This document shows, piece after piece, positions 19,276-37,669 of a stretch of 64,000 nucleotides of DNA (positions are counted from its first letter, which is position 1; every line of letters begins with the position of its first letter). A model generated the notes under the pieces. The model saw nothing but the letters and a program-made list of their open reading frames with translations. It searched no databases and had not been told where the DNA came from. A program made the translations under genes and the position numbers. This DNA comes from Escherichia coli (GTDB taxonomy: Bacteria; Pseudomonadota; Gammaproteobacteria; Enterobacterales; Enterobacteriaceae). Location: NCBI RefSeq assembly GCF_024298765.1, contig NZ_CP101210.1. One strand, given 5' to 3'.

Positions 19276-19290
19276 TACATGTTGTAGCAA

Positions 19291-19325: not shown

Positions 19326-19566
19326 ATTAATCAAAACATTCAACGTTTATATATTTCAATATTTATTTATTTAATATATGAATATATTAACCAGTGGAAT
19401 ACCTGTGTTTTGATTATTTCTAAAGATTTTGAATGAATGCTTATTGTCTGATACACAAGAAATAACACTCTTTTTATCGTTAAAAAAAGATATTTCACTT
19501 TGCCCATGCCGTTAAAGTCACTGATAATGCGTCCGTTCGTAAATTCAAAATGGCGTAATCTAATAT

Positions 19567-21066: not shown

Positions 21067-21077
21067 CCTTCCTGAAA

Positions 21078-21112
21078 ATGCCCGGTCCTGGCGATCGGGC
21101 ATTTCCATTTTT
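21078..21112. terminator. bidirectional terminator between convergent pitB and yghT
   Basis: atgcccg...cgggcat hairpin followed by ttccatttttg. Confidence 0.55.
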
Positions 21113-21114: not shown

Positions 21115-21807
21115 CTAGTGATAACCACGCGCGGTCATAAAATCCGTAATCGCTTTTTCTGCATCAACCAGCACCTTTTCCAGTGGCTGATTGGCGTCGA
21201 TATCAACCAGTTGTGCACCGCCAAAGGTTAACTGTGGCGTTATGGCAATCTTCCTCGCCAGCGATTCCCGTTTATGGTCGGGTTTACGCGCGCAGGCAAC
21301 TTCAAGGTCAACATTGAGTTTGATGACCAGATCAGGCTTATGGCTCGCCATCCAGTGAAATGCTTTACGTTCCTGGCTTGCCAGCCATGAGACAAACCGG
21401 CCGCCTTCAACGTTAGGTGGGAACACCGTACCATCGTAAGCGCCAGGAATTTGGTCCTGAGGATAACGATCGGTTAAGACAATCAGCCCGCGACGACGAC
21501 AGGCGAGCATATGACGAAAGCGTAACAGTCGGCGGGCGACGAAAGCGGTGATCACCAGGGCCGGAACCGGACCCGGCAATTTTTTTGCCGTTTTCACTTC
21601 ATTTTTTTCAATAGTCTTGTGCAGAGACTTTCCCATCAACGGTAATTTTGTCACTGCACGACCGACATTTCCGGCCTGTTTTCCTAAATGAACTCTTTCG
21701 GCAGCACCATATTTTTCGACAACGGTAATAAGATGTTCACACACCGTTGACTTGCCTGAACCATCGCTACCAATAACGGCAATTAATGGAGGTGTTATTG
21801 ACTGCAT
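21115..21807 (-). CDS. yghT: P-loop NTPase-like protein (paralog 1 of 3)
   Basis: 230 aa; Walker [10 protein letters not shown]; shares DRYPQ and ARKPDH motifs with yghS and yghR. Confidence 0.8.
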
Positions 21808-21980
21808 GAATATATCCTTAAATTTAAATATCCATCCAAAATATTTATTTGATTAATATGTTTTTATGAAAGCGTAATTCAGGTTAATGTCACAATTAAC
21901 CATTGTCACAATAAGGTTGAACGGATATTCTGAGCACGGACCACGTAATATTCAATACATTATTTGCTGCCGGGTTTTTC

Positions 21981-22694
21981 GTGAATCAACGTAATATGTC
22001 AATAATTAATTCCACGCCAGTGCGTGTTATTGCCATTGTAGGATGTGATGGTTCAGGTAAATCGACCCTCACGGCAAGCCTGGTAAATGAACTGGCAGCA
22101 ACAATGCCAACAGAACACATTTATCTCGGGCAATCGTCCGGGCGAATTGGCGAATGGATTTCACAGCTCCCTGTTATTGGCGCACCTTTTGGGCGTTATC
22201 TGCGAAGTAAAGCGGCACATGTGCACGAAAAGCCCTCCACACCACCTGGCAATATTACTGCGCTGGTTATCTATCTGCTTTCCTGCTGGCGGGCGTACAA
22301 GTTTCGCAAAATGTTGTGTAAAAGCCAGCAAGGCTATCTGCTCATCACCGACCGCTACCCGCAGGTTGAAGTGCCGGGTTTTCGCTTTGATGGCCCGCAA
22401 TTGGCAAAAACCACGGGCGGTAACGGTTGGATAAAAATGTTAAGGCAGCGCGAGCTGAAGCTGTACCAATGGATGGCGTCTTATTTGCCCGTATTGTTGA
22501 TTCGTCTTGGCATTGATGAACAAACCGCGTTTGCGCGTAAACCTGACCACCAACTGGCGGCGTTACAGGAAAAAATCGCCGTTACGCCGCAACTGACATT
22601 TAATGGCGCAAAGATCCTTGAACTGGATGGTCGGCAACCCGCCGATGAAATTCTGCAAGCGTCACTACGCGCAATTCACGCCGCGCTTTCCTGA
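21981..22694 (+). CDS. yghS: P-loop NTPase-like protein (paralog 2 of 3)
   Basis: 237 aa from GTG (ATG alternative at 21996); Walker A GCDGSGKST. Confidence 0.8.
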   Translation: MNQRNMSIINSTPVRVIAIVGCDGSGKSTLTASLVNELAATMPTEHIYLGQSSGRIGEWISQLPVIGAPFGRYLRSKAAHVHEKPSTPPGNITALVIYLLSCWRAYKFRKMLCKSQQGYLLITDRYPQVEVPGFRFDGPQLAKTTGGNGWIKMLRQRELKLYQWMASYLPVLLIRLGIDEQTAFARKPDHQLAALQEKIAVTPQLTFNGAKILELDGRQPADEILQASLRAIHAALS

Positions 22695-22725
22695 TCACCA
22701 AAATGGATAGGGGATGATTTAACGA

Positions 22726-23484
22726 ATGGACGCACTACAAACACAAACTGTTAATAGTACAACCGCGCCGCAGCCCAACTACATTCCGGGGCTGATTGCG
22801 GTGGTCGGGTGTGATGGCACCGGTAAATCCACACTGACCACCGACCTGGTGAAATCGCTGCAACAACACTGGCAAACCGAGCGGCGCTATCTGGGGCTGC
22901 TCTCGGGCGAAGACGGCGACAAAATCAAACGATTGCCGTTGGTTGGCGTCTGGCTCGAACGGCGACTGGCGGCCAAATCCTCGAAAACCCAAAGCATGAA
23001 AACCAAATCTCCAGCGCTATGGGCGGCGGTGATTATGTACTGCTTCTCGCTGCGAAGAATGGCGAATCTACGCAAGGTTCAGCGACTGGCGCAAAGTGGC
23101 GTTCTGGTGGTCAGCGATCGCTTCCCGCAGGCTGAAATTTCGGGCTTTTATTATGACGGACCGGGGATCGGCGTCGAACGTGCGACCGGGAAAATCAGCA
23201 TGTTTCTGGCGCAGCGCGAACGGCGTTTATACCAACAAATGGCGCAATACCGTCCTGAATTAATCATTCGTTTGGGGATTGATATTGATACTGCCATCTC
23301 CCGCAAGCCTGACCATGACTATGCCGAGCTGCAGGACAAAATCGGCGTCATGTCGACGATTGGCTATAACGGCACAAAAATTCTTGAGATTGATTCCAGA
23401 GCGCCCTACAGCGAAGTGCTGGAACAGGCACAGAAGGCGGTTTCTCTGGTTGCCATCGTTTCTGACCGCCGAAGTTTAACTTAA
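22726..23484 (+). CDS. yghR: P-loop NTPase-like protein (paralog 3 of 3)
   Basis: 252 aa; Walker A GCDGTGKST; DRFPQ; SRKPDH. Confidence 0.8.
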   Translation: MDALQTQTVNSTTAPQPNYIPGLIAVVGCDGTGKSTLTTDLVKSLQQHWQTERRYLGLLSGEDGDKIKRLPLVGVWLERRLAAKSSKTQSMKTKSPALWAAVIMYCFSLRRMANLRKVQRLAQSGVLVVSDRFPQAEISGFYYDGPGIGVERATGKISMFLAQRERRLYQQMAQYRPELIIRLGIDIDTAISRKPDHDYAELQDKIGVMSTIGYNGTKILEIDSRAPYSEVLEQAQKAVSLVAIVSDRRSLT

Positions 23485-23529
23485 GGCTGGCGGGATACTT
23501 TTTACTATCAACGATAAGGTCAGGCTGAA

Positions 23530-24879
23530 TTGGCGGGTTTTAACATCAAACATTGGTTTGCAGATGGCGCGTTTCGCACCATTATTCGCAATAGCGCCTG
23601 GTTAGGCTCCAGTAATGTCGTGAGCGCTTTGCTGGGTCTGTTGGCGCTCTCGTGTGCCGGTAAAGGGATGACGCCCGCCATGTTTGGCGTACTGGTGATT
23701 GTACAATCGTACGCCAAGTCGATCAGCGATTTTATTAAGTTTCAGACATGGCAGCTGGTGGTTCAGTACGGAACACCAGCATTAACCAACAATAATCCGC
23801 AGCAATTCCGCAATGTCGTCTCATTTTCCTTCTCGCTGGATATCGTCAGCGGCGCGGTGGCGATTGTCGGCGGCATTGCCTTACTCCCTTTTCTTTCCCA
23901 TTCATTAGGTCTGGATGACCAAAGCTTTTGGCTGGCAGCGCTGTATTGCACGCTCATTCCTTCAATGGCTTCCTCCACGCCGACCGGCATTCTGCGTGCG
24001 GTAGATCGCTTCGATCTAATTGCTGTACAGCAAGCGACGAAACCTTTTCTGCGCGCAGCGGGGAGCGTCGTTGCCTGGTATTTTGACTTTGGTTTTGCGG
24101 GTTTTGTTATTGCCTGGTACGCCTCGAATCTTGTTGGCGGCACCATGTACTGGTGGTTTGCCGCACGTGAATTACGCCGCAGAAATATCCATAACGCGTT
24201 CAAATTGAATCTGTTTGAGTCTGCCCGACACATCAAAGGCGCGTGGAGTTTTGTCTGGTCAACCAACATTGCCCATTCCATCTGGTCGGCGCGTAATTCG
24301 TGCAGCACAGTGTTGGTGGGGATCGTGTTAGGACCCGCTGCCGCCGGGTTATTTAAAATCGCCATGACATTCTTCGACGCCGCCGGAACGCCAGCGGGTT
24401 TACTGGGCAAAAGTTTTTACCCAGAGGTGATGCGTTTAGATCCGCGTACCACCAGACCGTGGTTGTTAGGCGTGAAGTCAGGTTTACTGGCGGGCGGAAT
24501 CGGTATTCTGGTGGCGCTCGCGGTGTTGATTGTCGGCAAGCCGCTCATTTCGCTGGTGTTTGGCGTTAAGTATCTCGAAGCGTATGACCTGATTCAGGTG
24601 ATGCTGGGCGCAATTGTGATCTCGATGCTGGGCTTCCCTCAGGAGTCATTGCTATTGATGGCGGGAAAACAGCGCGCTTTTCTCGTGGCGCAAACCATCG
24701 CCTCAATCGGCTACATCGTATTGCTGTTCATGTTCTGTCATCTGTTTGGCGTGCTGGGAGCAGCGTTTGCTTATTTCGGTGGTCAATGTCTGGATGTGGT
24801 GCTTTCGCTAATTCCGACCTTAAAGGCATTTTTTCAGCGCCATTCCTTGCTTTATAACGCAGCCGGAGAGAAATCCTGA
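23530..24879 (+). CDS. yghQ: MOP/Wzx-like multi-pass membrane flippase-family protein (start uncertain)
   Basis: Long hydrophobic ORF; first in-frame ATG at 23668; frame open upstream to TTG at 23530. Confidence 0.65.
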   Translation: MAGFNIKHWFADGAFRTIIRNSAWLGSSNVVSALLGLLALSCAGKGMTPAMFGVLVIVQSYAKSISDFIKFQTWQLVVQYGTPALTNNNPQQFRNVVSFSFSLDIVSGAVAIVGGIALLPFLSHSLGLDDQSFWLAALYCTLIPSMASSTPTGILRAVDRFDLIAVQQATKPFLRAAGSVVAWYFDFGFAGFVIAWYASNLVGGTMYWWFAARELRRRNIHNAFKLNLFESARHIKGAWSFVWSTNIAHSIWSARNSCSTVLVGIVLGPAAAGLFKIAMTFFDAAGTPAGLLGKSFYPEVMRLDPRTTRPWLLGVKSGLLAGGIGILVALAVLIVGKPLISLVFGVKYLEAYDLIQVMLGAIVISMLGFPQESLLLMAGKQRAFLVAQTIASIGYIVLLFMFCHLFGVLGAAFAYFGGQCLDVVLSLIPTLKAFFQRHSLLYNAAGEKS

Positions 24880-25703
24880 TGATGAGAAAATATTTCCCGC
24901 TAGAGGCGAGCGAGCGTCTATTTGTTGCGATTGAAGAAGATGATGTCGTTGATGCACAGGTCAGTTTGCCGCCGACTATCGCACTAAGTTGTACCACCGA
25001 AATCATCCATGATAATTACGCGTTATGCCTGCAATTCTGGCTCAATGGCGTCAATCGCCAGGAGTTACTGCGTTTAATATGCAAACAGGCCAAAGGCGAT
25101 GAGCTGACTGCTGATGAGCGCAAACAATTTAAATACATGCGAGCGCGCTACAAGCACCTGCGTTTTGCGCAACGGCTGTATTTAAAGAAGCATCAGGCCG
25201 GATTTTTATTCGGCAAAACGACCGTTTTTTTGGGGCGTTTTCAGGACGGCTTTCGTAACGGTAAGAAAAATATTGTGTCGTATTACGGCAACCTGTTACG
25301 GGTTTATTTAAGCTCTCCGGTCTGGTCGTTGGTGAACTATTCATTACGCCATAGCCAGTTAGAAAGCGTAAGCGGTTTTATTGCCTATCGGCAAAAGCAA
25401 ATGCATACCCTGAAAGAGATAATTGCCAAACCGCGACTAACCGGCAGGGAATTTCATGATGTGCGAAAAATCATCAGCCAGCAGGTTTCTTATTACGACA
25501 CCCTAAGATCGCTTGATCCTGAAAATAAAGAAGCGTTACAGATTTCCCGCTTCCTCGCCGCCATTAATGGCCTGATGGGGGATAAACACGACGACATGGT
25601 GGCGGATGATATGGAAAACCGCCAGTCGTATGATGCACCGATGGCGCTGGATAGCGATATTCGCCAGCGCTTAGAACTGCTGATTTCGCGTTTTCCGCTA
25701 TAA
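24879..25703 (+). CDS. hypothetical cytoplasmic protein, 274 aa (island gene)
   Basis: ATG overlaps yghQ stop (TGATG); GGAGAG RBS at 24865-24870; no domain recognised. Confidence 0.6.
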   Translation: MMRKYFPLEASERLFVAIEEDDVVDAQVSLPPTIALSCTTEIIHDNYALCLQFWLNGVNRQELLRLICKQAKGDELTADERKQFKYMRARYKHLRFAQRLYLKKHQAGFLFGKTTVFLGRFQDGFRNGKKNIVSYYGNLLRVYLSSPVWSLVNYSLRHSQLESVSGFIAYRQKQMHTLKEIIAKPRLTGREFHDVRKIISQQVSYYDTLRSLDPENKEALQISRFLAAINGLMGDKHDDMVADDMENRQSYDAPMALDSDIRQRLELLISRFPL

Positions 25704-25711
25704 CCGGAGCA

Positions 25712-26275
25712 ATGATGTCATCTCGTTTGATTATTGCGCTGATTATCATGCTCTTAGCCCCGGGTGTGCAGGCACACAATTTCGTCACTGGCAAAACGGT
25801 TACCCCCGTTTATATCCAGGAAGGCGGCGAGCTGCTTCGGAATAGCGACGACGAAATTCACTACCAAAAGTGGAACAGCACCCAATTGGCGGGAAAAGTT
25901 CGCATTATTCAGTATATCGCCGGGCGTAAGTCGGCGAAGAAAAAGAACTCACTGTTAATTAAAGCAGTTGAAGCGGCAAACTTTCCGCAGGATCGTTTTC
26001 AGCCCACCACCATTGTGAACACTGATGATGCCATCTTTGGTACCGGCTATTTTGTCGTTGGCAAAATCGAAAAAAATAAACGCCGCTATCCATGGGCGCA
26101 ATTCGTTATTGACGGCAATGGACAGGGACGCGTTGCCTGGCACTTGCAGGAGCAGAGTTCAACCATTCTGGTGCTGAATAAAACCGGGCAAATTCAGTGG
26201 GCAAAGGACGGCAGCCTGACGCCGGAAGAGGTAGATCATGTCATTGCGCTGGCGCAGAAGCTGATCAATGAATAA
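25712..26275 (+). CDS. YtfJ-family secreted/periplasmic protein paralog
   Basis: 187 aa; signal peptide MMSSRLIIALIIMLLAPGVQA; strong resemblance to E. coli YtfJ as recalled (KVRxxQHIAGR, TTIVNTDDAI, VQWAKDGxLTPEEV). Confidence 0.65.
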   Translation: MMSSRLIIALIIMLLAPGVQAHNFVTGKTVTPVYIQEGGELLRNSDDEIHYQKWNSTQLAGKVRIIQYIAGRKSAKKKNSLLIKAVEAANFPQDRFQPTTIVNTDDAIFGTGYFVVGKIEKNKRRYPWAQFVIDGNGQGRVAWHLQEQSSTILVLNKTGQIQWAKDGSLTPEEVDHVIALAQKLINE

Positions 26276-26304
26276 AAATTCAAAGGATTGAGGGCGTTAG
26301 TGAG

Positions 26305-27375
26305 ATGAAGCTGGTTGAACACTACATCATGCGTGGTACGCGCCGTCTGGTGCTGATTATCGTCGGTTTTCTGATCTTTATTTTCGCCAGCTACTCCGCA
26401 CAGCGTTATCTGACCGAAGCGGCAAATGGGACATTAGCTCTTGATGTTGTGCTGGATATCGTTTTCTACAAAGTGCTGATTGCACTGGAGATGTTGTTAC
26501 CTGTTGGACTGTATGTGTCAGTTGGCGTGACGCTAGGGCAGATGTATACCGACTCGGAAATTACCGCTATCTCTGCGGCGGGGGGCAGTCCGGGACGCTT
26601 GTACAAAGCCGTTCTTTATCTGGCGATACCGCTAAGTATTTTTGTCACCCTTCTGTCGATGTATGGTCGTCCGTGGGCTTATGCGCAGATTTATCAACTG
26701 GAGCAACAGTCACAGTCGGAGCTGGATGTTCGCCAGTTGCGGGCAAAGAAATTTAACACTAACGATAACGGACGAATGATCCTTTCGCAGACGGTTGATC
26801 AGGATAATAATCGCCTGACTGATGCGCTGATTTATACTTCTACTGCTAATCGAACCCGCATTTTCCGCGCCCGTTCGGTTGATGTGGTTGACCCATCACC
26901 TGAGAAACCGACCGTTATGTTGCATAACGGGACCGCCTATCTTCTCGATCATCAGGGGCGTGACGACAACGAACAGATCTACCGTAATCTGCAATTACAT
27001 CTGAATCCGCTGGATCAAAGCCCTAACGTCAAACGCAAAGCAAAATCGGTCACGGAGCTGGCGCGCTCCGCCTTTCCTGCCGATCATGCCGAACTGCAAT
27101 GGCGACAAAGCCGTGGCCTGACAGCATTGTTGATGGCGCTGCTGGCCATTTCATTAAGTCGGGTAAAACCGCGGCAAGGGCGATTTTCAACGTTATTGCC
27201 ACTGACGTTGCTGTTTGTTGCCATTTTTTATGGCGGCGACGTCTGCCGTACGCTGGTGGCTAACGGCGCGATTCCCCTCATTCCTGGTTTGTGGTTAGTA
27301 CCCGGACTCATGCTAATGGGCCTGCTGATGTTGGTCGCACGCGACTTCTCTTTGCTGCAGAAATTTTCCCGATGA
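26305..27375 (+). CDS. LptF-like permease (YjgP/YjgQ family) paralog
   Basis: 356 aa; 6-TM pattern with large periplasmic loop; YTDSEIT and KPRQGRF motifs resembling LptF. Confidence 0.7.
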   Translation: MKLVEHYIMRGTRRLVLIIVGFLIFIFASYSAQRYLTEAANGTLALDVVLDIVFYKVLIALEMLLPVGLYVSVGVTLGQMYTDSEITAISAAGGSPGRLYKAVLYLAIPLSIFVTLLSMYGRPWAYAQIYQLEQQSQSELDVRQLRAKKFNTNDNGRMILSQTVDQDNNRLTDALIYTSTANRTRIFRARSVDVVDPSPEKPTVMLHNGTAYLLDHQGRDDNEQIYRNLQLHLNPLDQSPNVKRKAKSVTELARSAFPADHAELQWRQSRGLTALLMALLAISLSRVKPRQGRFSTLLPLTLLFVAIFYGGDVCRTLVANGAIPLIPGLWLVPGLMLMGLLMLVARDFSLLQKFSR

Positions 27376-28451
27376 ATGTTTTCAGTCGCTATTTAATCCG
27401 TCATCTCTTTCTCGGTTTTGCCGCCGCCGCAGGGCTATTGCTGCCGCTTTTTACCACCTTCAACCTGATTAACGAACTGGATGATGTCAGCCCGGGTGGT
27501 TATCGCTGGACTCAGGCGGTGCTGGTGGTGCTGATGACCTTACCGCGCACACTGGTCGAACTTTCGCCGTTTATCGCCTTATTGGGAGGGATTGTCGGCC
27601 TGGGGCAGTTATCGAAAAACAGTGAGCTTACCGCCATTCGCAGCACGGGGTTTTCTATCTTCCGTATTGCACTGGTGGCGCTGGTTGCCGGGATATTGTG
27701 GACTGTTTCATTAGGCGCGATAGATGAGTGGGTGGCGTCGCCATTGCAGCAACAGGCGCTGCAAATCAAATCGACTGCCACTGCGTTGGGGGAGGACGAT
27801 GACATTACCGGCAATATGCTGTGGGCCAGGCGTGGTAATGAATTTGTGACGGTGAAATCGCTGAACGAGCAGGGCCAGCCGGTGGACGTGGAGATATTTC
27901 ATTACCGCGATGATCTCTCGCTCGAATCCTACATTTATGCGCGCAGTGCTACCATTGAAGACGACAAAACGTGGATCCTGCATGGTGTGAATCATAAAAA
28001 ATGGCTGAATGGCAAAGAAACGCAGGAAACATCTGATAATCTTCCCTGGCAATCGGCCTTCACCAGTATGAATCTTGAAGAGTTATCGATGCCGGGAAAT
28101 ACTTTTTCTGTCCGTCAACTTAATCATTACATCCATTATTTGCAGGAAACCGGGCAACCCAGCAGCGAATACCGCCTTGCACTGTGGGAAAAACTGGGAC
28201 AACCCATCTTGACCCTGGCGATGATTTTGCTGGCTGTGCCGTTTACCTTTAGCGCCCCGCGTTCGCCTGGGATGGGTAGCCGTCTCGCTGTAGGCGTCAT
28301 CGTTGGCTTACTCACCTGGATCAGCTATCAAATCATGGTCAATCTGGGATTGTTATTTGCGTTGAGCGCACCTGTTACCGCGCTCGGTTTACCGGTAGCG
28401 TTTGTGCTGGTGGCGTTGAGCCTGGTGTATTGGTATGACAGACAACATTAA
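27372..28451 (+). CDS. LptG-like permease (YjgP/YjgQ family) paralog
   Basis: ATG at 27372 overlaps upstream stop (ATGA); MNVFSRYLIRHLF N-terminus typical of LptF/G family; 359 aa. Confidence 0.7.
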   Translation: MNVFSRYLIRHLFLGFAAAAGLLLPLFTTFNLINELDDVSPGGYRWTQAVLVVLMTLPRTLVELSPFIALLGGIVGLGQLSKNSELTAIRSTGFSIFRIALVALVAGILWTVSLGAIDEWVASPLQQQALQIKSTATALGEDDDITGNMLWARRGNEFVTVKSLNEQGQPVDVEIFHYRDDLSLESYIYARSATIEDDKTWILHGVNHKKWLNGKETQETSDNLPWQSAFTSMNLEELSMPGNTFSVRQLNHYIHYLQETGQPSSEYRLALWEKLGQPILTLAMILLAVPFTFSAPRSPGMGSRLAVGVIVGLLTWISYQIMVNLGLLFALSAPVTALGLPVAFVLVALSLVYWYDRQH

Positions 28452-28485
28452 ACCCGCCGTGGCGCAACACCACAGCGGGCTCACA

Positions 28486-29658
28486 TTACTGCTTCAGAGT
28501 AGCAAATGCCTGAATGATGGCATCGATTTGCTCACGACTGTGGGCAGCGTTTACGCTACAGCGCAGCAGCGTGATGCCTGCAGGCGCGGCAGGTGGCAGG
28601 ATAAGATTCACATAAACGCCCAGCGAAATAAGCTCGCGCCAGATGCGTAAACCTTCCTCTTTCGAACCGATTATTACTGGCACTACCGGGCTAATATGTG
28701 AACTTAACTCATAACCCAGTTTTTGCAGACCGTCATACAGATGGTTGGCGTTATCCATCAGTTTTTGCCGCAGCTCTGGTTGTGTGGAAATGGTTCTTAA
28801 CGACGAGCGCACGGTCGCAATGCAGGACGGAGAAGGAGAGGCGGTAAAAATATACGGGCGGCTGCCGTAGCGCAGCACTTCCATCGCTTCTGAACCCACG
28901 GCAAAACCACCAATGGAAGCCAAACTTTTACTGAAGGTGCCGACGATAATATCCACGTCGTCTTCAACGCCAACGGCTTCAACCAGTCCGCGGCCTGTTG
29001 CGCCTAACACGCCAAACGAATGTGCTTCATCGACAATCAAATAACCACCGAGACGACGTTTGATATCAACAATTTCTGCCAGCGGCGCAACGTCACCGAG
29101 CATACTGTAGATGCCTTCAACGATAATAATCGCCTCTTTCGCCCGTTCACCGAGGCGGACCATGCGCCGTTCCAGATCGTTGACGTCATTATGGCGGAAA
29201 CGAATAATCTCTGCGCCGCCGAGAGAACAGGCGTCATAAATACTGGCGTGGCTGTCGGCATCCAGTAACACCACGGCGTTATGGTCGGCAAGTGCGCTGA
29301 TGACACCTAAATTAGCGGTATAACCGGTTGAAAAAACGATAGCGGTAGGGCGATTGAAAAACTCGGCAATCTCTTTCTCTAACGCCAGATGCGGCGCATA
29401 ACTGCCGTTTGCCATACGAGAACCGGTGGTGCCAGTGCCTTGGGCCGCTAACGCTGCCTGACCTTCGCGGATAGCATCATGATTAAAGGTTAAACCGAGA
29501 TAATTATTGGTCCCGGCCAGAATCACTTTTTTATTGCCGATCCGGCCTTCGGTGGCGGAATACACTTCATCAATACAGGTGCCAAATGGTGTTAACCCGT
29601 TGTCACTAAATTGCAGGCGCTCGCCAGCAAGGCGCGCATATTTATCGTATAGCCCCAT
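28486..29658 (-). CDS. alpha-oxoamine synthase, serine palmitoyltransferase-like (PLP-dependent)
   Basis: 390 aa; DEAHSFG and GTFSKSLAS motifs (Lys244 codon at 28927-28929) typical of SPT/KBL/AONS family. Confidence 0.75.
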   Translation of the reverse strand: MGLYDKYARLAGERLQFSDNGLTPFGTCIDEVYSATEGRIGNKKVILAGTNNYLGLTFNHDAIREGQAALAAQGTGTTGSRMANGSYAPHLALEKEIAEFFNRPTAIVFSTGYTANLGVISALADHNAVVLLDADSHASIYDACSLGGAEIIRFRHNDVNDLERRMVRLGERAKEAIIIVEGIYSMLGDVAPLAEIVDIKRRLGGYLIVDEAHSFGVLGATGRGLVEAVGVEDDVDIIVGTFSKSLASIGGFAVGSEAMEVLRYGSRPYIFTASPSPSCIATVRSSLRTISTQPELRQKLMDNANHLYDGLQKLGYELSSHISPVVPVIIGSKEEGLRIWRELISLGVYVNLILPPAAPAGITLLRCSVNAAHSREQIDAIIQAFATLKQ

Positions 29659-29906
29659 TATTTATTCTCCAGCCATGGAAGTAGAGTTTCCATTAATTGC
29701 GCAGGGGTTTTGACATCCAGCAGAATATTAATAGGAATGGAAATATCGAATCTGTCTTCCAGCATCATTAAGAGATCCATCACTTTGATCGACTCCAGGC
29801 CAAGATCGTTGACGAGATCGCTGTCGGGCTTAATTTCCACACCGTTTTCGACCAAATCCTGTAAACAGGAAAGGATGTAATCCATTACTATTTCACGATT
29901 TACCAT
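29658..29906 (-). CDS. dedicated acyl carrier protein
   Basis: 82 aa; DLGLESIKVMDLLMMLEDRF helix-2 region with candidate phosphopantetheine Ser; stop overlaps AOS start (TAATG). Confidence 0.65.
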   Translation of the reverse strand: MVNREIVMDYILSCLQDLVENGVEIKPDSDLVNDLGLESIKVMDLLMMLEDRFDISIPINILLDVKTPAQLMETLLPWLENK

Positions 29907-29937
29907 AGAAACGTTAACACACCTTTAAACAAGACAA

Positions 29938-30852
29938 TCAAAATAGCCCGTTGCGTAATGCGTGTTCCAGGCTAATCCCGGGAAACCAATTAATATCTTC
30001 AGAAATACGGTTATTATTTGCCGACCAGTCGGCGTGGGTTAATTCACGAATTTTCGAGCGGGTCAGCATAGGTTCTTTACCTGCCAGGCGACTCAACGCA
30101 GTACTGATATCCGCAAGGCAGGTGAGTAGCGGCAGAGGAATGCCAACCATCCGCACAGAACCACAACGGGCTTCGGCGGCAAGCTGTCGTACGCGTTGCC
30201 AGTCATAGCCGCCAGCGACGCCATCGCATAATTCATAGGTTTGCGTCTGTACAGTTTCGGCGTTTAACCACTGACCCACTGCTTGCGCAAAATCGGTGAC
30301 GTGCAGGAAAGAGAGTTGTGTATCTGGCGCACCAAGTCGTGGCAGCAGGCCGCGCAGCATCCAGTCAAACAGCGGTTTTAACTCTTTATCGCCGGGACCA
30401 TACACGGCTGTCGGGCGAAAAATGCCCAGCGTAATTTCGTCAGCCATTGCGATCAGTCGTTGTTCGGCGACGTGTTTGGAATTTGCGTACCAGGAGAGTT
30501 CGGGATGGCGCGCCGCCAGCGAAGAGATAAACAGAAAACGTTGGCAAAAGCCGCTCTCTTTTGCCGCTTGCATCAGGCGCAGGCTGCCGTCAACGTTACA
30601 GCGGGTAAAAATCTCTTCTTTGTGTCCGCGCACTTGTCCGGCGCAATGGACCACCGCGCTGGCTCCGGCAACCAGTTCGCTAAGCGAATGTGTATCTTCC
30701 AGCGAACCGCGCACCCAGATGAGATTATCATTGACGTGAGCGCGGGCAGTACGCGTCAATGTGCGAACGTGAAAGCCGCGGGCGAGCAGGTTATCGATAA
30801 TATATTTACCGATAAACCCGGTAGCGCCCGTCACCGCGACAGTTTGATTCAT
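29938..30852 (-). CDS. NAD(P)-dependent epimerase/dehydratase-fold reductase
   Basis: ATG at 30852 (MNQTVAVTGATGFIGKYI), 304 aa; YANSK catalytic dyad; track ORF has an N-terminal extension overlapping the upstream gene. Confidence 0.7.
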   Translation of the reverse strand: MNQTVAVTGATGFIGKYIIDNLLARGFHVRTLTRTARAHVNDNLIWVRGSLEDTHSLSELVAGASAVVHCAGQVRGHKEEIFTRCNVDGSLRLMQAAKESGFCQRFLFISSLAARHPELSWYANSKHVAEQRLIAMADEITLGIFRPTAVYGPGDKELKPLFDWMLRGLLPRLGAPDTQLSFLHVTDFAQAVGQWLNAETVQTQTYELCDGVAGGYDWQRVRQLAAEARCGSVRMVGIPLPLLTCLADISTALSRLAGKEPMLTRSKIRELTHADWSANNNRISEDINWFPGISLEHALRNGLF

Positions 30853-32573
30853 GCCAGGGATTCCTGCACATGAAGGCTTGCAGCATAAGCCTTCTGATAA
30901 CGTTTTTTCGCTTCCGCACGGGCAGGCTTGCCGGAGGACGTTCGGGGAATACTGTGGGGCGGCAACAGATCGATAGCCGCGGTCACGCCAAATTCGCTTT
31001 GGATCCGTGCTACCAGTGCGTGGATAAGCTGCCCACGACGTTCTTCGTCGCTGATCCGACACTGGATCTGCAAAATGATTTTTTCCTGGGCGGTAACAAA
31101 AGCAATCGCATCGCCAGAATGAATTTCCGGTTCCTGTTCCGCAATGTATTCAATATCCTGCGGCCAGATATTACGGCCACGAATAATAATCAGATCTTTA
31201 ATGCGTCCGGTGACATACAGATAACCGTCCAGCAGATAACCGAGGTCGCCGGTGTCTAACCAGCCCGTCGCGGCAATCTCGTCTTGCGAAACCTGGTCGC
31301 CAAAGTACCCGCTCATCAGGCTGGGGCCGGAGATGCAAATATGGCCTACCACACGTTCCGCGACAGGTATATCTGCTTCATTGCGGATTTCAATGCCATG
31401 TTCCGGCAACGCTTTACCGCAGTTGACGAAAGTCGATACGGCGCGTGTTTCAGCACCCGGCGCGACGGCTTTACCCTGGTATTCGAGGATGTCGCGATCC
31501 ACTTCGTTAACCACAACCCCGCAGGCTTCATCAGAGAAGCTGACAGCCAGCGCATTTTCTGCCAGTCCGTAGCACGGCATGAAAGTTTTATCGTCAAAGT
31601 TAACCTGACGAAAACATTCAGCGAATTGATGGAGTTGTTCTGCGGAGATCGGTTCTGCTCCAATACCAGCGACGCGCCAGCAGGAAAGATCCAGTTCAGC
31701 GAGATCTTTTTCATTCACGCGGCGCTGGCACAATTCATAGCCAAACGGCGGTGCAACGGAAACGGTGCCGCGATTTTTACTGATCAATTTAAGCCATTGC
31801 AGAGGACGCATGGCAAAATCCTGAGTGCGCAAATAATCTACTGAAAGCTGCGTGGCGACGGGGGTCAGGAGAAAGCCGACCAGTCCCATATCATGGTAGA
31901 AAGGCAGCCAGGAGACGCAGCGGTCGCCAGGGCGTAATTTAATGCCATCGTGGCTTATAGCACGTAGATTAGCCATCACTTCGTGATGGGTGATAATGAC
32001 GCCACGGGGAAAACGGGTGCTGCCGGAGGTGTACTGGAGGTAGGCGATATCGTTCGGAACTGGACGCTGGAGCGCAACATCGGCTTCCGGTAATGCCTTA
32101 AACCAGGCGTGGCTTAAAACATGTAATTCGGGGTTGTTGTTATGCGTCGCGGCATTGACCAGCGGTAACCACTCATCACCAGTGATAATGGCTGCGGGCT
32201 GGCAACTTGCCAGTAAACCCTGCAGTTTGGCGCTCCAGGAATCCCGCTGACCGACGCCCATTGGAATCGCCAACGGGACGGCGACTAAGCCGGCACACTG
32301 GCAGGAAAAAAAAGCCTCTACAAACCCGCTACTCGTTTCGGCAATCAGCGCCACGCGATCGCCTTTTTTCAGGTTCAGCGATAACAACCGCTTCGCACCA
32401 GCTTCGGCACGCGCTTTTAACGTCTGATATTCCAGTTGATCTTCAAGTTGGCAACGTCTGTCATAAAAATTCATTCCGGCGCTACTCAGAGCGGCGTAGT
32501 CCAAAGCATCAACCAGCGTTGGAAAATCGGCATAGCGCATAGGTAGGGAATGCGTAAAGATTTTATTAGACAT
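30849..32573 (-). CDS. fatty acyl-AMP ligase / acyl-ACP synthetase-like adenylating enzyme
   Basis: About 574 aa from ATG at 32573; YTSGSTRFPRG core motif; GRIKDLIIIRGRNIWPQDIE; stop overlaps next start. Confidence 0.7.
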   Translation of the reverse strand: MSNKIFTHSLPMRYADFPTLVDALDYAALSSAGMNFYDRRCQLEDQLEYQTLKARAEAGAKRLLSLNLKKGDRVALIAETSSGFVEAFFSCQCAGLVAVPLAIPMGVGQRDSWSAKLQGLLASCQPAAIITGDEWLPLVNAATHNNNPELHVLSHAWFKALPEADVALQRPVPNDIAYLQYTSGSTRFPRGVIITHHEVMANLRAISHDGIKLRPGDRCVSWLPFYHDMGLVGFLLTPVATQLSVDYLRTQDFAMRPLQWLKLISKNRGTVSVAPPFGYELCQRRVNEKDLAELDLSCWRVAGIGAEPISAEQLHQFAECFRQVNFDDKTFMPCYGLAENALAVSFSDEACGVVVNEVDRDILEYQGKAVAPGAETRAVSTFVNCGKALPEHGIEIRNEADIPVAERVVGHICISGPSLMSGYFGDQVSQDEIAATGWLDTGDLGYLLDGYLYVTGRIKDLIIIRGRNIWPQDIEYIAEQEPEIHSGDAIAFVTAQEKIILQIQCRISDEERRGQLIHALVARIQSEFGVTAAIDLLPPHSIPRTSSGKPARAEAKKRYQKAYAASLHVQESLA

Positions 32574-32600
32574 ATACACCACGAAAAAATTGGATATCAA

Positions 32601-32943
32601 AAATAAAATGACAATAATGCGGTGGATTATATAGGCATAAAAGATAAATGAGATAGTATTTTCATCAGTGTGAAAATGAACATTGATTTAAATAATGAGT
32701 TTGAGTTTTTTTGTTTTTATTGTGAATGATATTTAATTTATGAATATATTAAGAAGAAGCCTTGTCCGGTCGCCTTAAATCGACAAAAGGCATTGTGGCG
32801 CTTCTGTGTAGTCTCTGACCTTATCGTAATCATTAATAATACTATTTATTCGTCGTTTGTATTCATTGGGTTGATTGTTAAGGTGCCGTTCGTTGCTGTT
32901 GCAACCTGTTTGTCACCGTTAATTATTTGTTACCCACAGAACT
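32601..32943. promoter_or_regulatory. AT-rich divergent intergenic region (promoters for lipid operon and yghO)
   Basis: About 340 bp markedly AT-rich with A/T tracts, flanked by divergent start codons. Confidence 0.5.
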
Positions 32944-34086
32944 ATGGAATGCGATCTGCTGATGATTAAAATTGAAAAAGTAATTAATAAAAATGACCTT
33001 AAGGCATTTATCGCTTTTCCGTCATCACTTTATCCCGACGATCCAAACTGGATACCCCCTTTATTCATTGAACGCAACGAGCATTTGTCTGCGAAAAATC
33101 CGGGGACGGACCATATCATCTGGCAGGCGTGGGTGGCAAAAAAAGCGGGGCAGATAGTTGGGCGTATTACCGCGCAAATCGATACCTTGCACCGCGAGCG
33201 TTACGGCAAAGATACCGGTCATTTCGGCATGATTGACGCCATTGATGATCCGCAGGTTTTTGCCGCGTTGTTTGGCGCAGCGGAAGCGTGGTTGAAGTCA
33301 CAAGGTGCAAGTAAGATCAGCGGTCCTTTCAGCCTGAATATCAATCAGGAAAGCGGATTACTGATTGAAGGTTTCGATACACCACCCAGTGCGATGATGC
33401 CACACGGTAAACCGTGGTATGCCGCGCATATTGAACAACTGGGTTATCACAAAGGCATTGATTTACTGGCGTGGTGGATGCAGCGAACCGATCTCACTTT
33501 CTCTCCGGCGCTAAAAAAACTGATGGATCAGGTGCGCAAAAAAGTGACCATTCGCTGCATCAATCGCCAGCGGTTTGCCGAAGAGATACAGATCCTGCGT
33601 GAGATTTTCAATTCTGGCTGGCAGCACAACTGGGGATTTGTGCCGTTTACCGAACATGAATTCGCGACCATGGGCGATCAACTTAAATATCTGGTGCCGG
33701 ACGATATGATCTACATCGCTGAGATTGATTCTGCACCCTGCGCGTTTATTGTTGGCTTGCCGAACATCAACGAGGCGATTGCCGATCTGAACGGATCGCT
33801 CTTTCCCTTCGGCTGGGCAAAATTGCTGTGGCGTTTGAAAGTCAGCGGTGTGCGAACTGCGCGAGTGCCGCTGATGGGCGTGCGGGACGAGTATCAGTTC
33901 AGCCGCATCGGCCCGGTAATTGCGCTGTTATTGATTGAAGCCTTACGCGATCCGTTTGCCCGTCGGAAGATCGATGCGCTGGAGATGTCATGGATCCTCG
34001 AAACCAATACAGGCATGAATAACATGCTGGAACGCATTGGGGCGGAGCCGTACAAGCGTTACCGATTGTATGAAAAGCAGATTTGA
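32944..34086 (+). CDS. yghO: GNAT-fold acyltransferase-like protein (uninterrupted reading frame)
   Basis: 380-aa ORF from ATG 32944 (alternative ATG 32962); divergent from lipid operon. Confidence 0.65.
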   Translation: MECDLLMIKIEKVINKNDLKAFIAFPSSLYPDDPNWIPPLFIERNEHLSAKNPGTDHIIWQAWVAKKAGQIVGRITAQIDTLHRERYGKDTGHFGMIDAIDDPQVFAALFGAAEAWLKSQGASKISGPFSLNINQESGLLIEGFDTPPSAMMPHGKPWYAAHIEQLGYHKGIDLLAWWMQRTDLTFSPALKKLMDQVRKKVTIRCINRQRFAEEIQILREIFNSGWQHNWGFVPFTEHEFATMGDQLKYLVPDDMIYIAEIDSAPCAFIVGLPNINEAIADLNGSLFPFGWAKLLWRLKVSGVRTARVPLMGVRDEYQFSRIGPVIALLLIEALRDPFARRKIDALEMSWILETNTGMNNMLERIGAEPYKRYRLYEKQI

Positions 34087-34092
34087 TGGCAG

Positions 34093-34857: not shown

Positions 34858-35107
34858 TCCCGGACCTCGTGCACAGGTAGGACCAATTTTTCTGTTCTTA
34901 ACTCGCAAAACACGCACATCACGCAAGTGATTATGTTACATCAATTTAACATTAAGTTAACCAAGGCAAGGTCACAGAGCTGGAAAAAAAATGGTCTGAC
35001 CGGTAGCTAAAGAGATAGACGAAAACGAAAAGCCCGCTTAATAACTGTTCACAGAAGCAGCGCGCAAAAATCAGCTGCCACACAACACAACAAAGCGAAG
35101 CCTATTC

Positions 35108-37659: not shown

Positions 37660-37669
37660 GGAGCAGGCT

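What the first reader, a model, noticed from the sequence alone, without database searches (positions are those of the whole stretch)
24879..34086. Candidate bacterial ceramide/sphingolipid-like lipid synthesis and export island between yghQ and glcC
Seven uninterrupted genes sit between yghQ and yghO: an unknown 274-aa protein, a YtfJ-like secreted protein, an LptF/LptG-like permease pair, and a four-gene minus-strand operon (acyl-AMP ligase, epimerase/dehydratase-fold reductase, ACP, SPT-like synthase), with the GNAT-fold gene yghO divergent from it. As I recall the Caulobacter work, the five enzymes needed for bacterial ceramide synthesis are exactly an Spt, an ACP, an acyl-ACP synthetase, an epimerase-fold reductase (CerR) and a GNAT-fold ceramide synthase (bCerS). 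All five types are present here, plus a possible envelope transporter. From memory, K-12 carries only a disrupted yghO next to an IS5 copy at this position, which would explain why this has no K-12 phenotype. E. coli is not known to make sphingolipids.
Basis: partly seen in the sequence, partly recalled or inferred. Interest (0 to 1): 0.92.

Follow-up and report, generated by a model that had tools for sequence, protein, structure and literature searches.

The report
E. coli sphingolipid synthesis and export locus
This stretch of the E. coli chromosome encodes the five enzymes that make ceramide (a sphingolipid) plus a dedicated envelope exporter; it is real, intact and present in about three quarters of E. 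coli strains, but it has already been described in the literature, so only its extra accessory genes and its still-unseen natural product are new ground.

Summary
All the ORFs are at the stated coordinates, though there are eight genes between yghQ and yghO, not seven.

The interpretation also holds. Compared directly with the validated Caulobacter locus:
- Spt: 53% identity
- AasR: 43%
- AcpR: 41%
- CerR: 33%
- YghO/bCerS: 44% over the full length

The Spt scores above NCBI's curated serine palmitoyltransferase cut-off and below the BioF and Kbl cut-offs. YghO models as a tandem GNAT. In K-12, an IS5 replaces window 24599-32983.

The finding is not new. Padilla-Gómez et al. 2022 (PMC9386255) described this five-gene cluster in E. 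coli BL21 and showed AcpR, AasR and Spt activity. A 2026 preprint places LptF/G homologues in the E. coli UTI89 sphingolipid locus. RefSeq already names the gene spt.

What I add:
- The unit is a 13-gene module (window 21115-34086), conserved with rearrangement in Serratia, Pantoea and Pluralibacter.
- It is present in 4051 of 5426 complete E. coli genomes.
- All 13 genes are under purifying selection (dN/dS 0.02-0.20).
- yghQ is the homologue of the Caulobacter putative flippase CC_1166.
- The 274-aa protein has a CHAD fold.
- yghR/S/T are dTMP-kinase-like P-loop proteins with no Caulobacter counterpart.

The native lipid and the conditions that induce the locus remain unknown.

The parts
21115..21807 (-). 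yghT, a dTMP-kinase-like P-loop protein (230 aa), divergent from yghS. It is an accessory gene of the conserved module; substrate unknown.
   Evidence: ORF with a Walker A motif. Only a weak dTMP-kinase match, 25.7 bits against a cut-off of 83. 34-37% identical to YghS and YghR, and 66-70% identical in Serratia and Pantoea, where it lies directly beside spt. dN/dS 0.02.
21981..22694 (+). yghS, a dTMP-kinase-like P-loop protein (237 aa) and first gene of the plus-strand run yghS to lptG2.
   Evidence: 44% identical to YghR. No solved relative by sequence. The family has 1072 representative clusters. Of two distant members whose contigs were read, one sits beside a MOP flippase in a glycan cluster and the other beside a PEMT-family gene.
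22726..23484 (+). yghR, a dTMP-kinase-like P-loop protein (252 aa).
   Evidence: Conserved next to yghS and yghQ in all enterobacterial loci examined.
23530..24879 (+). yghQ, a MOP/Wzx-type flippase-family membrane protein (449 aa). It is the homologue of the Caulobacter putative sphingolipid flippase CC_1166.
   Evidence: 26% identity over 406 aa to CC_1166, E 8.5e-44. Weak MOP flippase match. Polysacc_synt Pfam on the orthologues. Its last base, 24879, is also the first base of the next gene. Truncated to 355 aa by IS5 in K-12.
24879..25703 (+). Unnamed 274-aa all-helical protein with a CHAD-like predicted fold. Restricted to Enterobacterales; function unknown.
25715..26275 (+). YtfJ-family protein with a signal peptide. 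It matches the family named after K-12 ytfJ; I made no direct comparison with K-12 YtfJ.
   Evidence: TIGR01626 212 bits against a cut-off of 151. N-terminal hydrophobic leader ending VQA-HN. Conserved between the CHAD-fold gene and lptF2 in Pluralibacter and Pantoea.
26305..27375 (+). lptF2, an LptF-family permease and candidate sphingolipid extractor subunit.
   Evidence: TIGR04407 320 bits. Only 29% identical to housekeeping K-12 LptF and 27% to Caulobacter LptF2.
27372..28451 (+). lptG2, an LptG-family permease that partners lptF2. Its start overlaps the end of lptF2.
   Evidence: TIGR04408 310 bits. 28% identical to K-12 LptG and 22% to Caulobacter LptG2. No ABC ATPase or lptC gene in the locus.
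28449..28483 (.). 16-bp-stem hairpin between the convergent lptG2 and spt stop codons. Likely a bidirectional terminator.
   Evidence: 16 pairs, 9 of them G-C. Sequence shown.
28486..29658 (-). spt, serine palmitoyltransferase (390 aa).
   Evidence: NF047599 598.6 bits against a cut-off of 500. 53% identical to Caulobacter Spt. Best solved match is SPT 2jg2, with the GTFSKS lysine, HASIYD and DEAHS motifs aligned. 98.5% identical to the E. coli B enzyme, whose activity was shown in PMC9386255.
29658..29906 (-). acpR, a specialised acyl carrier protein (82 aa). It shares one base with the spt start.
   Evidence: Weak ACP matches. 41% identical over 51 aa to Caulobacter AcpR. 100% identical to the E. 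coli B protein, which carries 4'-phosphopantetheine.
29938..30852 (-). epi/cerR homologue, an extended-SDR reductase (304 aa).
   Evidence: Pfam Epimerase, E 9.7e-23. 33% identical over 287 aa to Caulobacter CerR, E 3e-35, at the same position in the operon. Its ATG overlaps the aasR stop codon.
30849..32540 (-). aasR, a fatty acyl-AMP-ligase-type acyl-AcpR synthetase (563 aa; alternative start at 32570).
   Evidence: NF006624 861 bits against a cut-off of 600. 43% identical over 560 aa to CC_1165. The E. coli B protein acylates its own AcpR.
32541..32943 (.). AT-rich divergent control region between aasR and yghO, and an IS5 target.
   Evidence: 403 bp at 32% GC, against 52% for the window. 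An IS5-family element is inserted at TTAG 32566-32569 in APEC 102026. One end of the K-12 IS5 deletion lies at 32983. No convincing sigma-70 promoter or Pho box.
32944..34086 (+). yghO, the bacterial ceramide synthase (bCerS) homologue, a tandem-GNAT N-acyltransferase (380 aa).

Best explanation
This is the E. coli version of the proteobacterial sphingolipid (dihydroceramide) synthesis and export locus.

Proposed pathway:
1. AasR adenylates a free fatty acid and loads it on the dedicated carrier AcpR. This step is shown for the E. coli B proteins.
2. Spt condenses acyl-AcpR with L-serine to give 3-oxo-sphinganine. Also shown for the E. coli B enzyme.
3. YghO (bCerS) N-acylates the base, and the epimerase-fold reductase (the CerR homologue) reduces the 3-keto group to give dihydroceramide. 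This is inferred from homology to the validated Caulobacter enzymes. The order of these two steps is disputed in the literature.
4. YghQ, the homologue of Caulobacter CC_1166, flips the lipid across the inner membrane (inferred).
5. LptF2-LptG2, powered by the housekeeping LptB, extract the lipid for transfer to the outer membrane. This is inferred from Caulobacter experiments.

The functional unit is a 13-gene module, window 21115-34086. It also holds three dTMP-kinase-like P-loop proteins (YghT/S/R), a CHAD-fold protein and a YtfJ-family protein with a signal peptide. I take these to be head-group, handling or regulatory functions specific to Enterobacterales (inferred, weakly).

The locus appears silent in laboratory culture. 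K-12 lost eight genes outright and the ends of two more to an IS5-associated deletion.
For: - Direct BLASTP against the Caulobacter locus: Spt 53% (E 3e-146), AasR 43% (5e-152), YghO/bCerS 44% full length (5e-111), CerR 33% (3e-35), AcpR 41% (2e-11), YghQ/CC_1166 26% over 406 aa (8.5e-44), LptG2 22% (1e-15), LptF2 27% (3e-8). The aasR-epi-acpR-spt order is identical.
- Curated HMMs place the synthase in Spt and not in BioF, Kbl, ALAS or CqsA. Solved SPTs are the best structural relatives by sequence, with PLP-site motifs conserved.
- YghO models as a tandem GNAT.
- Published biochemistry on the E. coli B proteins: AcpR carries 4'-phosphopantetheine, AasR acylates AcpR, and Spt makes 3-oxo-sphinganine. 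Those proteins are 97-100% identical to the ones here.
- Published Caulobacter work: lptF2/G2 can be deleted only when sphingolipid synthesis is off, and the proteins pull down LptB.
- The 13 genes stay together despite rearrangement in Serratia, Pantoea and Pluralibacter.
- Start and stop codons overlap or abut within both gene runs.
- dN/dS is 0.02-0.20 for all 13 genes.
- The module is present in 4051 of 5426 complete E. coli genomes.
Against: - In the searched library (CC-licensed PubMed Central papers and bioRxiv) I found no report of a sphingolipid from unmodified E. coli. BL21 with empty vectors shows no sphingolipid spots, and its extracts make no 3-oxo-sphinganine.
- The E. coli YghO and Epi proteins have never been assayed.
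- E. coli LptF2/G2 are no closer to Caulobacter LptF2/G2 (27%, 22%) than to housekeeping LptF/G (29%, 28%). Orthology of the exporter is therefore unproven.
- The locus has no lptC2 or cpgABC homologues.
- Caulobacter CerR is reported to be periplasmic, yet the E. coli protein starts directly with its Rossmann motif and has no signal peptide.
- About a quarter of E. coli genomes have lost the locus, through several different deletions. It is therefore dispensable.
Confidence: 0.85

Rival explanations
1. The locus is a cryptic relic. The genes are intact but are effectively never expressed, and E. coli makes no sphingolipid in nature.
For: - No 3-oxo-sphinganine or sphingolipid spot in BL21 without overexpression.
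- Both control regions are very AT-rich, 30-32% GC, as in silenced loci.
- The locus has been lost repeatedly, by IS5, IS1 and other deletions.
Against: - All 13 genes show dN/dS of 0.02-0.20 between distant E. coli lineages.
- They remain intact and 60-83% identical across enterobacterial genera.
- The locus is retained in 75% of complete genomes.
- A neutral relic would accumulate frameshifts and would show dN/dS near 1.
Confidence: 0.08
2. The pathway makes a lipid that is not a ceramide-type sphingolipid. Examples would be a free or modified long-chain amino-ketone signal, or a base built from an amino acid other than serine. In that case YghO would acylate something else.
For: - Alpha-oxoamine synthases are versatile. 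The CqsA-type autoinducer synthase and cysteate acyltransferase are detectable relatives.
- YghO and Epi activity has never been measured.
- The accessory genes differ completely from those of Caulobacter.
Against: - The E. coli B enzyme incorporates L-[14C]serine into a product that migrates with 3-oxo-sphinganine.
- The Spt model is passed while the CqsA model is failed, 226 bits against a cut-off of 428.
- YghO is 44% identical over its full length to the validated ceramide synthase.
- Spots that migrate like sphinganine and ceramide appear in BL21 when 3-oxo-sphinganine is supplied in vivo.
Confidence: 0.05
3. The LptF/LptG pair is a spare or alternative LPS exporter, as RefSeq names it. 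On this reading it is only a neighbour of the sphingolipid genes and does not carry their product.
For: Both proteins pass the curated LptF and LptG 'equivalog' cut-offs. They are slightly closer to housekeeping LptF/G than to the Caulobacter sphingolipid pair.
Against: - They are only 28-29% identical to the essential LptF/G.
- In the enterobacterial loci where that flank was read (Pluralibacter L008, Pantoea L011, contig L012) they lie beside the sphingolipid genes, and the pair is also in the Caulobacter locus, in different arrangements.
- They lie in one overlapping gene run with yghQ.
- In K-12 they were deleted together with spt, with no LPS defect known (this last point is from general knowledge).
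- Caulobacter genetics ties the paralogues to sphingolipid synthesis.
Confidence: 0.07

Closest known systems
Caulobacter crescentus sphingolipid locus CC_1152-CC_1168 (CCNA_01212-01226): Spt, AcpR, AasR, CerR, bCerS, LptF2/G2/C2, putative flippase CC_1166, CpgABC
   Same: The five ceramide-synthesis proteins are homologous at 33-53% identity, and aasR-cerR-acpR-spt are in the same order. A MOP-type putative flippase is shared (YghQ and CC_1166, E 8.5e-44). Both loci have an LptF/LptG paralogue pair and no lptB of their own.
   Different: E. coli has no homologue of CpgA/B/C, CC_1152, CC_1153, CC_1157, CC_1158, CC_1167 or LptC2. It therefore cannot make ceramide phosphoglycerate by the Caulobacter route. 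In their place it has three dTMP-kinase-like P-loop proteins, a CHAD-fold protein and a YtfJ-family protein. The Lpt paralogues are too diverged to call orthologues.
E. coli BL21(DE3) cluster ECD_02850-ECD_02854 (yghO/aca, aasR, epi, acpR, spt), Padilla-Gómez et al. 2022, PMC9386255
   Same: It is the same locus in another strain. An E. coli B-lineage genome carries it at 97.2% nucleotide identity, and the proteins are 95-100% identical. The paper's identity values against Caulobacter (44, 53, 41, 34 and 42%) match mine.
   Different: That paper treats five genes. It does not discuss yghQ, yghR/S/T, the 274-aa protein, the YtfJ-family gene or lptF2/G2. It also does not cover how widely the locus occurs in E. 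coli.
LptF2-LptG2 sphingolipid transporter of Caulobacter (Uchendu, Isom and Klein, bioRxiv 2026, 10.64898/2026.04.12.717747)
   Same: LptF/LptG-family permeases encoded inside a sphingolipid locus with no ATPase gene of their own. The preprint's Figure 2B draws the E. coli UTI89 locus beside those of Caulobacter and Sphingomonas.
   Different: All the experiments were done in Caulobacter, and nothing has been tested for the E. coli pair. LptC2 is absent here.
Housekeeping LptB2FGC lipopolysaccharide extractor of E. coli
   Same: Same protein family and the same length (356 and 359 aa against 366 and 360 aa). The matches to the LptF and LptG models cover nearly their full length.
   Different: Only 28-29% identity. 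The pair is non-essential, since it is deleted in K-12. It is genetically linked to sphingolipid genes, not to pepA.
CHAD domains (polyphosphate-binding helical domains, e.g. Ricinus 6qv5, Streptomyces PptA 6rn5, E. coli YgiF 5a61)
   Different: No member of the family matches the Pfam CHAD model, and a family profile finds no solved relative. Sequence identity to CHAD structures is 8-17%. There is no CYTH partner domain. Ligand unknown.

Membership tests
Bacterial serine palmitoyltransferase (Spt) | Scores above the curated family cut-off and better than the sister alpha-oxoamine synthases (BioF, Kbl, ALAS, CqsA) | tested here: met
   NF047599 598.6 bits against a cut-off of 500. BioF 336 against 426, Kbl 299 against 460, CqsA-type 226 against 428, ALAS 219 against 339. 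Solved SPTs 377 bits, against Kbl 207 and BioF 181.
Bacterial serine palmitoyltransferase (Spt) | PLP-binding lysine and active-site His/Asp motifs | tested here: met
   GTFSKS, DADSHASIYD and VDEAHS align with the same motifs of S. paucimobilis SPT 2jg2.
Bacterial serine palmitoyltransferase (Spt) | Condenses L-serine with an acyl thioester to give 3-oxo-sphinganine | not testable with these tools
   Published for the E. coli BL21 enzyme. The protein here is 98.5% identical to that of an E. coli B strain.
AcpR/AasR pair (specialised ACP and its acyl-ACP synthetase) | A small PP-binding protein immediately upstream of spt, and a FAAL-type ligase in the same operon, both homologous to CC_1163 and CC_1165 | tested here: met
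   AcpR 41% over 51 aa and AasR 43% over 560 aa. NF006624 861 bits against a cut-off of 600. Same gene order. 4'-phosphopantetheinylation and cognate acylation are published for the E. coli B proteins.
CerR (bacterial ceramide / 3-keto reductase) | Extended-SDR epimerase-fold protein homologous to CC_1164, encoded between aasR and acpR | tested here: met
   Pfam Epimerase, E 9.7e-23. 33% identity over 287 aa, E 3e-35, at the same operon position. GATGFIG and YANSK motifs can be read in the sequence.
CerR (bacterial ceramide / 3-keto reductase) | Reduces oxidised ceramide or 3-oxo-sphinganine; located in the periplasm in Caulobacter | not testable with these tools
   Never assayed for the E. 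coli protein. There is only a sphinganine-like TLC spot in BL21. No signal peptide is visible, which does not fit the reported periplasmic location.
bCerS (bacterial ceramide synthase) | Full-length homology to the validated CC_1154/CCNA_01212 | tested here: met
   44% identity over 380 of 380 aa, E 5e-111. Published value 44%, E 1e-107. Relatives of CC_1154 are named ceramide synthase by NCBI.
bCerS (bacterial ceramide synthase) | GNAT-type acyl-CoA N-acyltransferase fold | tested here: met
bCerS (bacterial ceramide synthase) | N-acylates the long-chain base | not testable with these tools
   Not assayed for YghO. There is only a ceramide-like TLC spot in BL21 when 3-oxo-sphinganine is supplied in vivo.
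Sphingolipid-specific LptF2/LptG2 transporter | LptF/LptG-family permease pair encoded within a sphingolipid locus, without its own ATPase | tested here: met
   TIGR04407 and TIGR04408 passed. The pair is linked to spt in the Pluralibacter locus (L008), the Pantoea locus (L011) and contig L012. No ABC ATPase is annotated in the locus.
Sphingolipid-specific LptF2/LptG2 transporter | Orthology to the Caulobacter LptF2/G2 clade as opposed to housekeeping LptF/G | tested here: inconclusive
   27% and 22% identity to Caulobacter LptF2/G2, against 29% and 28% to K-12 LptF/G. No phylogeny was built.
Sphingolipid-specific LptF2/LptG2 transporter | Binds LptB, and is needed only when sphingolipid is made | not testable with these tools
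   Shown only in Caulobacter.
CHAD domain | Matches the Pfam CHAD profile | tested here: not met
   No CHAD hit for the query or for any of the 29 family members. A family profile finds no PDB sequence.
CHAD domain | Two-bundle helical CHAD fold | tested here: met
dTMP kinase (the RefSeq name for yghS/yghT) | Scores above the curated dTMP-kinase cut-off | tested here: not met
   24.8-30.9 bits against a cut-off of 83.25. They are P-loop proteins of that general kind, not thymidylate kinases.

The most novel reading that the evidence does not exclude
Enterobacterales carry a conserved 13-gene sphingolipid module in which the Caulobacter head-group genes are replaced by three dTMP-kinase-like P-loop proteins (YghR/S/T), a CHAD-fold protein and a YtfJ-family protein with a signal peptide. 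On this reading these genes build or handle a so-far-undescribed sphingolipid, probably phosphorylated and anionic. Wild E. coli, including Nissle 1917 and pathogenic lineages, would export it to the outer membrane through YghQ and LptF2G2-LptB, under conditions not met in laboratory culture. The IS5 deletion in K-12 would explain why it has gone unnoticed.
Probability: 0.3. Interest if true: 0.7.

Novelty: already known. Interest (0 to 1): 0.35.

Why it matters
E. coli is the textbook organism said to have only three membrane phospholipids. Yet three quarters of its sequenced strains keep a complete ceramide pathway with its own exporter, under purifying selection. These include the probiotic Nissle 1917, the colitis-model strain NC101 and the O104:H4 and O111 pathogens.

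The specialist literature already knows the genes. In the searched literature I found no report of the lipid from an unmodified strain, of when it is made or of what it does.

This has practical consequences. Bacterial sphingolipids alter outer-membrane barrier function and polymyxin sensitivity in Caulobacter. Bacteroides sphingolipids enter host metabolism. A recent urinary-tract-infection study attributed the dihydroceramide Cer(d18:0/16:0) in infected urine to the host, on the grounds that bacteria rarely make ceramide. K-12-based work cannot see any of this.

The accessory genes identified here (yghQRST, the CHAD-fold gene, the YtfJ-family gene) give concrete targets for working out the E. 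coli-specific product.

Tried and rejected
- **Anti-phage defence system:** rejected. PADLOC gives only trivial P-loop matches for yghR/S/T and nothing for the 274-aa protein, the YtfJ-family protein or YghO.
- **BioF/Kbl/ALAS/CqsA identity for the synthase:** rejected on curated cut-offs and on PDB ranking.
- **Phosphate control through a Pho box:** 5 matches in the window against 4.6 expected, and none in the control regions.
- **Sigma-70 promoter scan:** no enrichment over shuffled sequence, so no promoter is claimed.
- **Rosetta-stone clue for YghS from fused relatives:** the ~260-aa N-terminal domains of the ~500-aa relatives match no NCBIfam model. Rare fusions to GT4 glycosyltransferase or Wzc-like domains point only loosely to glycoconjugate pathways.
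- **Context of distant YghS relatives:** one shows a MOP-flippase partnership in a sulfotransferase and glycosyltransferase cluster; neither contig read has spt.
- **Stankeviciute et al. 2022 (PMC8891067):** not held in the library. What it says about E. coli was therefore not checked.
- **Stbl4 as a K-12 reference:** it has a rearrangement at this IS5, so MG1655 was used instead.

Full report
**What is in the sequence**

They match RefSeq gene models in two strains that are 100% identical over the region.

Between yghQ (23530-24879) and yghO (32944-34086) there are eight genes, not seven. On the plus strand:
- a 274-aa protein (24879-25703)
- a YtfJ-family protein with a signal peptide (25715-26275)
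- an LptF-like permease (26305-27375)
- an LptG-like permease (27372-28451)

Convergent on the minus strand:
- spt (28486-29658)
- an ACP gene (29658-29906)
- an epimerase-fold SDR gene (29938-30852)
- a fatty acyl-AMP ligase gene (30849-32540)

Start and stop codons overlap or abut at yghQ/274-aa, lptF/lptG, ligase/SDR and ACP/spt. A 16-bp hairpin (28449-28483) separates the two convergent runs. glcC follows yghO.

**Family assignments** (unless stated)

| Gene product | Result |
|---|---|
| Synthase | 598.6 bits on NF047599, serine palmitoyltransferase (cut-off 500) |
| Synthase, sister families | Below cut-off on BioF (336/426), Kbl (299/460), CqsA-type (226/428) and ALAS (219/339) |
| Ligase | NF006624 fatty acyl-AMP ligase, 861 bits (cut-off 600) |
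| Permeases | Pass the LptF and LptG models |
| YtfJ-like protein | Passes TIGR01626 |
| SDR | Pfam Epimerase, E 9.7e-23 |

The test comes out the other way.

The best solved relatives of the synthase are the Sphingomonas SPTs at 377 bits, against 207 for Kbl and 181 for BioF. The PLP-lysine motif GTFSKS and the HASIYD and DEAHS motifs are conserved.

YghO and the 274-aa protein match nothing in Pfam, NCBIfam or PDB sequences.

**Direct comparison with Caulobacter**

I recovered the C. vibrioides locus using a published cpgB cloning primer as an exact DNA probe. I then extended it to the whole CC_1152-CC_1168 region. BLASTP of the E. coli proteins against it:

| E. coli protein | Caulobacter protein | Identity | E-value |
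|---|---|---|---|
| Spt | CC_1162 | 53% over 389 aa | 3e-146 |
| AasR | CC_1165 | 43% over 560 aa | 5e-152 |
| YghO | CC_1154 (bCerS) | 44% over 380 aa | 5e-111 |
| Epi | CC_1164 (CerR) | 33% over 287 aa | 3e-35 |
| AcpR | CC_1163 | 41% over 51 aa | 2e-11 |

The order aasR-epi-acpR-spt is the same in both organisms. Close relatives of the Caulobacter protein I call bCerS are named 'ceramide synthase' by NCBI.

**It is already published**

Padilla-Gómez et al. 2022 (PMC9386255) describe this cluster in E. coli BL21(DE3): ECD_02850 = yghO/aca, then aasR, epi, acpR and spt. They tabulate the same identities to the Caulobacter proteins and note that the five genes are clustered only in Caulobacter and E. 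coli. They show three things experimentally:
- E. coli AcpR carries 4'-phosphopantetheine.
- E. coli AasR acylates its own AcpR.
- E. coli Spt forms 3-oxo-sphinganine and prefers acyl-AcpR.

The proteins in this window are 95-100% identical to those of an E. coli B strain.

A 2026 bioRxiv preprint (Uchendu, Isom and Klein) covers the transporter. It shows that Caulobacter lptF2, lptG2 and lptC2 can be deleted only when sphingolipid or CPG synthesis is off. It also shows that LptF2 and LptG2 bind each other and the housekeeping LptB. It draws the E. coli UTI89 'sphingolipid operons' next to those of Caulobacter and Sphingomonas, and says lptF2/G2 occur in many alpha- and gammaproteobacterial sphingolipid loci.

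RefSeq already annotates the gene as 'spt: serine palmitoyltransferase'. Both the core finding and the transporter idea are therefore correct but known.

**K-12 and distribution**

In MG1655 an IS5 sits between a 5'-truncated yghO and a yghQ cut to 355 aa. The deletion corresponds to window 24599-32983.

| Query | Complete E. coli genomes with at least 80% coverage (of 5426) |
|---|---|
| spt alone | 4092 |
| Full 13-gene block | 4051 |

Carriers of the full block include Nissle 1917, NC101 and O111:H11; the O104:H4 genome was seen only with the 9.2-kb query.

Losses are of several independent kinds: the K-12 IS5 type, an IS1 type, an ST131 variant lacking the spt-to-yghO end, and others.

Against Nissle 1917 and an E. 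coli B strain, all 13 genes show dN/dS of 0.02-0.20. That argues against a decaying relic.

yghQ is the homologue of CC_1166, the Caulobacter 'potential flippase': 26% identity over 406 aa, E 8.5e-44.

In Serratia liquefaciens and Pantoea cypripedii, the homologues of yghT, yghS, yghR, yghQ and the 274-aa gene lie directly beside the spt operon. The arrangement differs from that in E. coli. In a second Pantoea-like contig and another enterobacterial contig, all 13 genes are contiguous. Pluralibacter has the E. coli order with one extra gene.

Linkage that survives rearrangement argues for one functional module, window 21115-34086. So do the overlapping or closely spaced (at most 45 bp apart) genes from yghS to lptG2 in E. 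coli. I found no paper in the library that links yghQ/R/S/T to sphingolipids.

**The accessory genes**

YghT, YghS and YghR are paralogues, 34-44% identical to each other. They have a Walker A motif and only sub-threshold resemblance to dTMP kinase, 25-31 bits against a cut-off of 83. The RefSeq names 'dTMP kinase' are not justified.

Of two distant YghS relatives whose contigs I read, one sits beside a MOP-flippase gene in a glycoconjugate cluster and the other beside a PEMT-family gene.

E. coli has no homologue of CpgA/B/C, CC_1152/1153/1157/1158, CC_1167 or LptC2. Whatever decorates the ceramide here is therefore not made the Caulobacter way.

LptF2 and LptG2 are 29% and 28% identical to the K-12 housekeeping proteins, and 27% and 22% identical to the Caulobacter paralogues. 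They are old paralogues whose orthology to the Caulobacter pair is open.

**Mechanism, with its status**

Shown, in E. coli B proteins by others:
- Fatty acid is loaded on AcpR by AasR.
- Acyl-AcpR and serine are condensed by Spt.

Inferred from homology to validated Caulobacter enzymes:
- N-acylation by YghO and keto-reduction by Epi. The order of these steps is disputed in the literature.

Inferred from homology, and from Caulobacter genetics for the Lpt pair only:
- Flipping by YghQ.
- Extraction by LptF2G2 using the housekeeping LptB.

Open: the roles of YghR/S/T, the CHAD-fold protein and the YtfJ-family protein. My working guess is that they add or handle a phosphate-containing head group.

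One inconsistency stands. Caulobacter CerR is reported to be periplasmic, but the E. coli protein begins directly with its Rossmann motif.

**Why no one has seen the lipid**

BL21 carrying empty vectors shows no sphingolipid spots, and its extracts make no 3-oxo-sphinganine. When 3-oxo-sphinganine is supplied in vivo, spots that migrate like sphinganine and ceramide do appear.

Both control regions are strikingly AT-rich: 32% and 30% GC, against 52% for the window. The aasR-yghO region is a repeated IS5 target. I found no Pho box or convincing promoter. Silencing in laboratory culture is a reasonable inference but was not tested.

**Verdict**

- The finding as written is already known.
- The residual interest lies in the 13-gene enterobacterial module and its accessory genes, in the scale of carriage in E. 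coli, and in the still-unidentified native product.

Noticed in passing
window 32541-32943 (insertion at 32566-32569); K-12 deletion window 24599-32983: The AT-rich aasR-yghO intergenic region (32% GC) is a repeated IS5 target. APEC 102026, otherwise 100% identical, has an IS5-family element at TTAG 32566-32569, just upstream of aasR. One end of the K-12 IS5-associated 8.4-kb deletion lies 40 bp inside yghO. Whether such insertions silence or activate the operons is unknown.
   Followed up: partly
L007 11354-11716; L009 11242-11604; L012 14948-15310: In Serratia, Pantoea and a related contig, a 120-aa DgkA-family lipid kinase gene directly follows yghO. It is only 43-47% identical to E. coli DgkA, so it looks like a paralogue and not the housekeeping gene. 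It is a candidate ceramide kinase. From general knowledge, E. coli DgkA is known to phosphorylate ceramide in vitro. The gene is absent from the E. coli locus.
   Followed up: partly
window 21115-23484 and 26305-28451 (RefSeq names seen in L003, L015, L016, L017): RefSeq names look too specific. yghS and yghT are called 'dTMP kinase' although they score 25-31 bits against a cut-off of 83. The sphingolipid-locus permeases are called 'LPS export ABC transporter permease LptF/LptG' although they are only 28-29% identical to the essential proteins.
   Followed up: yes
E. coli genome hits H83-H92: About 25% of complete E. coli genomes lack an intact module, through several different events. These include the K-12 IS5 type, an IS1-associated type, an ST131 strain missing the spt-to-yghO end, strains keeping only yghT-yghQ or only yghO, and one with a yghT remnant next to gspL. 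I did not map which lineages are affected.
   Followed up: partly
L008 4275-5123: Pluralibacter gergoviae has an extra 282-aa gene between lptG2 and spt, with a weak DJ-1/PfpI match. E. coli has only the terminator hairpin at that position.
   Followed up: no
L014 6457-9494; proteins P0296, P0346, P0385: Distant relatives of YghS are often ~500-aa proteins in which the YghS-like domain follows an unidentified ~260-aa domain. In the one such contig I read (L014) the gene lies immediately after a Polysacc_synt (MOP flippase) gene, in a cluster with sulfotransferases and glycosyltransferases. A flippase plus YghS-like pair may therefore be a module reused outside sphingolipid loci.
   Followed up: partly
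literature, PMC12644811: A 2025 study of recurrent urinary-tract infection found the dihydroceramide Cer(d18:0/16:0) among the lipids that best mark active infection. [quoted passage not shown] Most E. coli carry this locus, so a bacterial origin deserves a test.
   Followed up: no
protein P0152: One E. coli protein cluster named 'type II secretion system protein GspM' (280 aa) matches 81% of the 274-aa CHAD-fold protein at 97% identity. This suggests a rearrangement or mis-assembly joining this locus to the nearby T2SS-beta genes in some strains.
   Followed up: no
roughly window 3100-21100 and 34090-52000 (annotated stretch L017, offset 3114); window ends not examined: The annotated flanks I read are ordinary E. 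coli chromosome in the expected order: exbBD, the hyb hydrogenase-2 operon, yghU, gss and pitB on one side, and glcC-glcDEFGBA, sslE and the start of the T2SS-beta genes on the other. Nothing unusual seen.
   Followed up: partly
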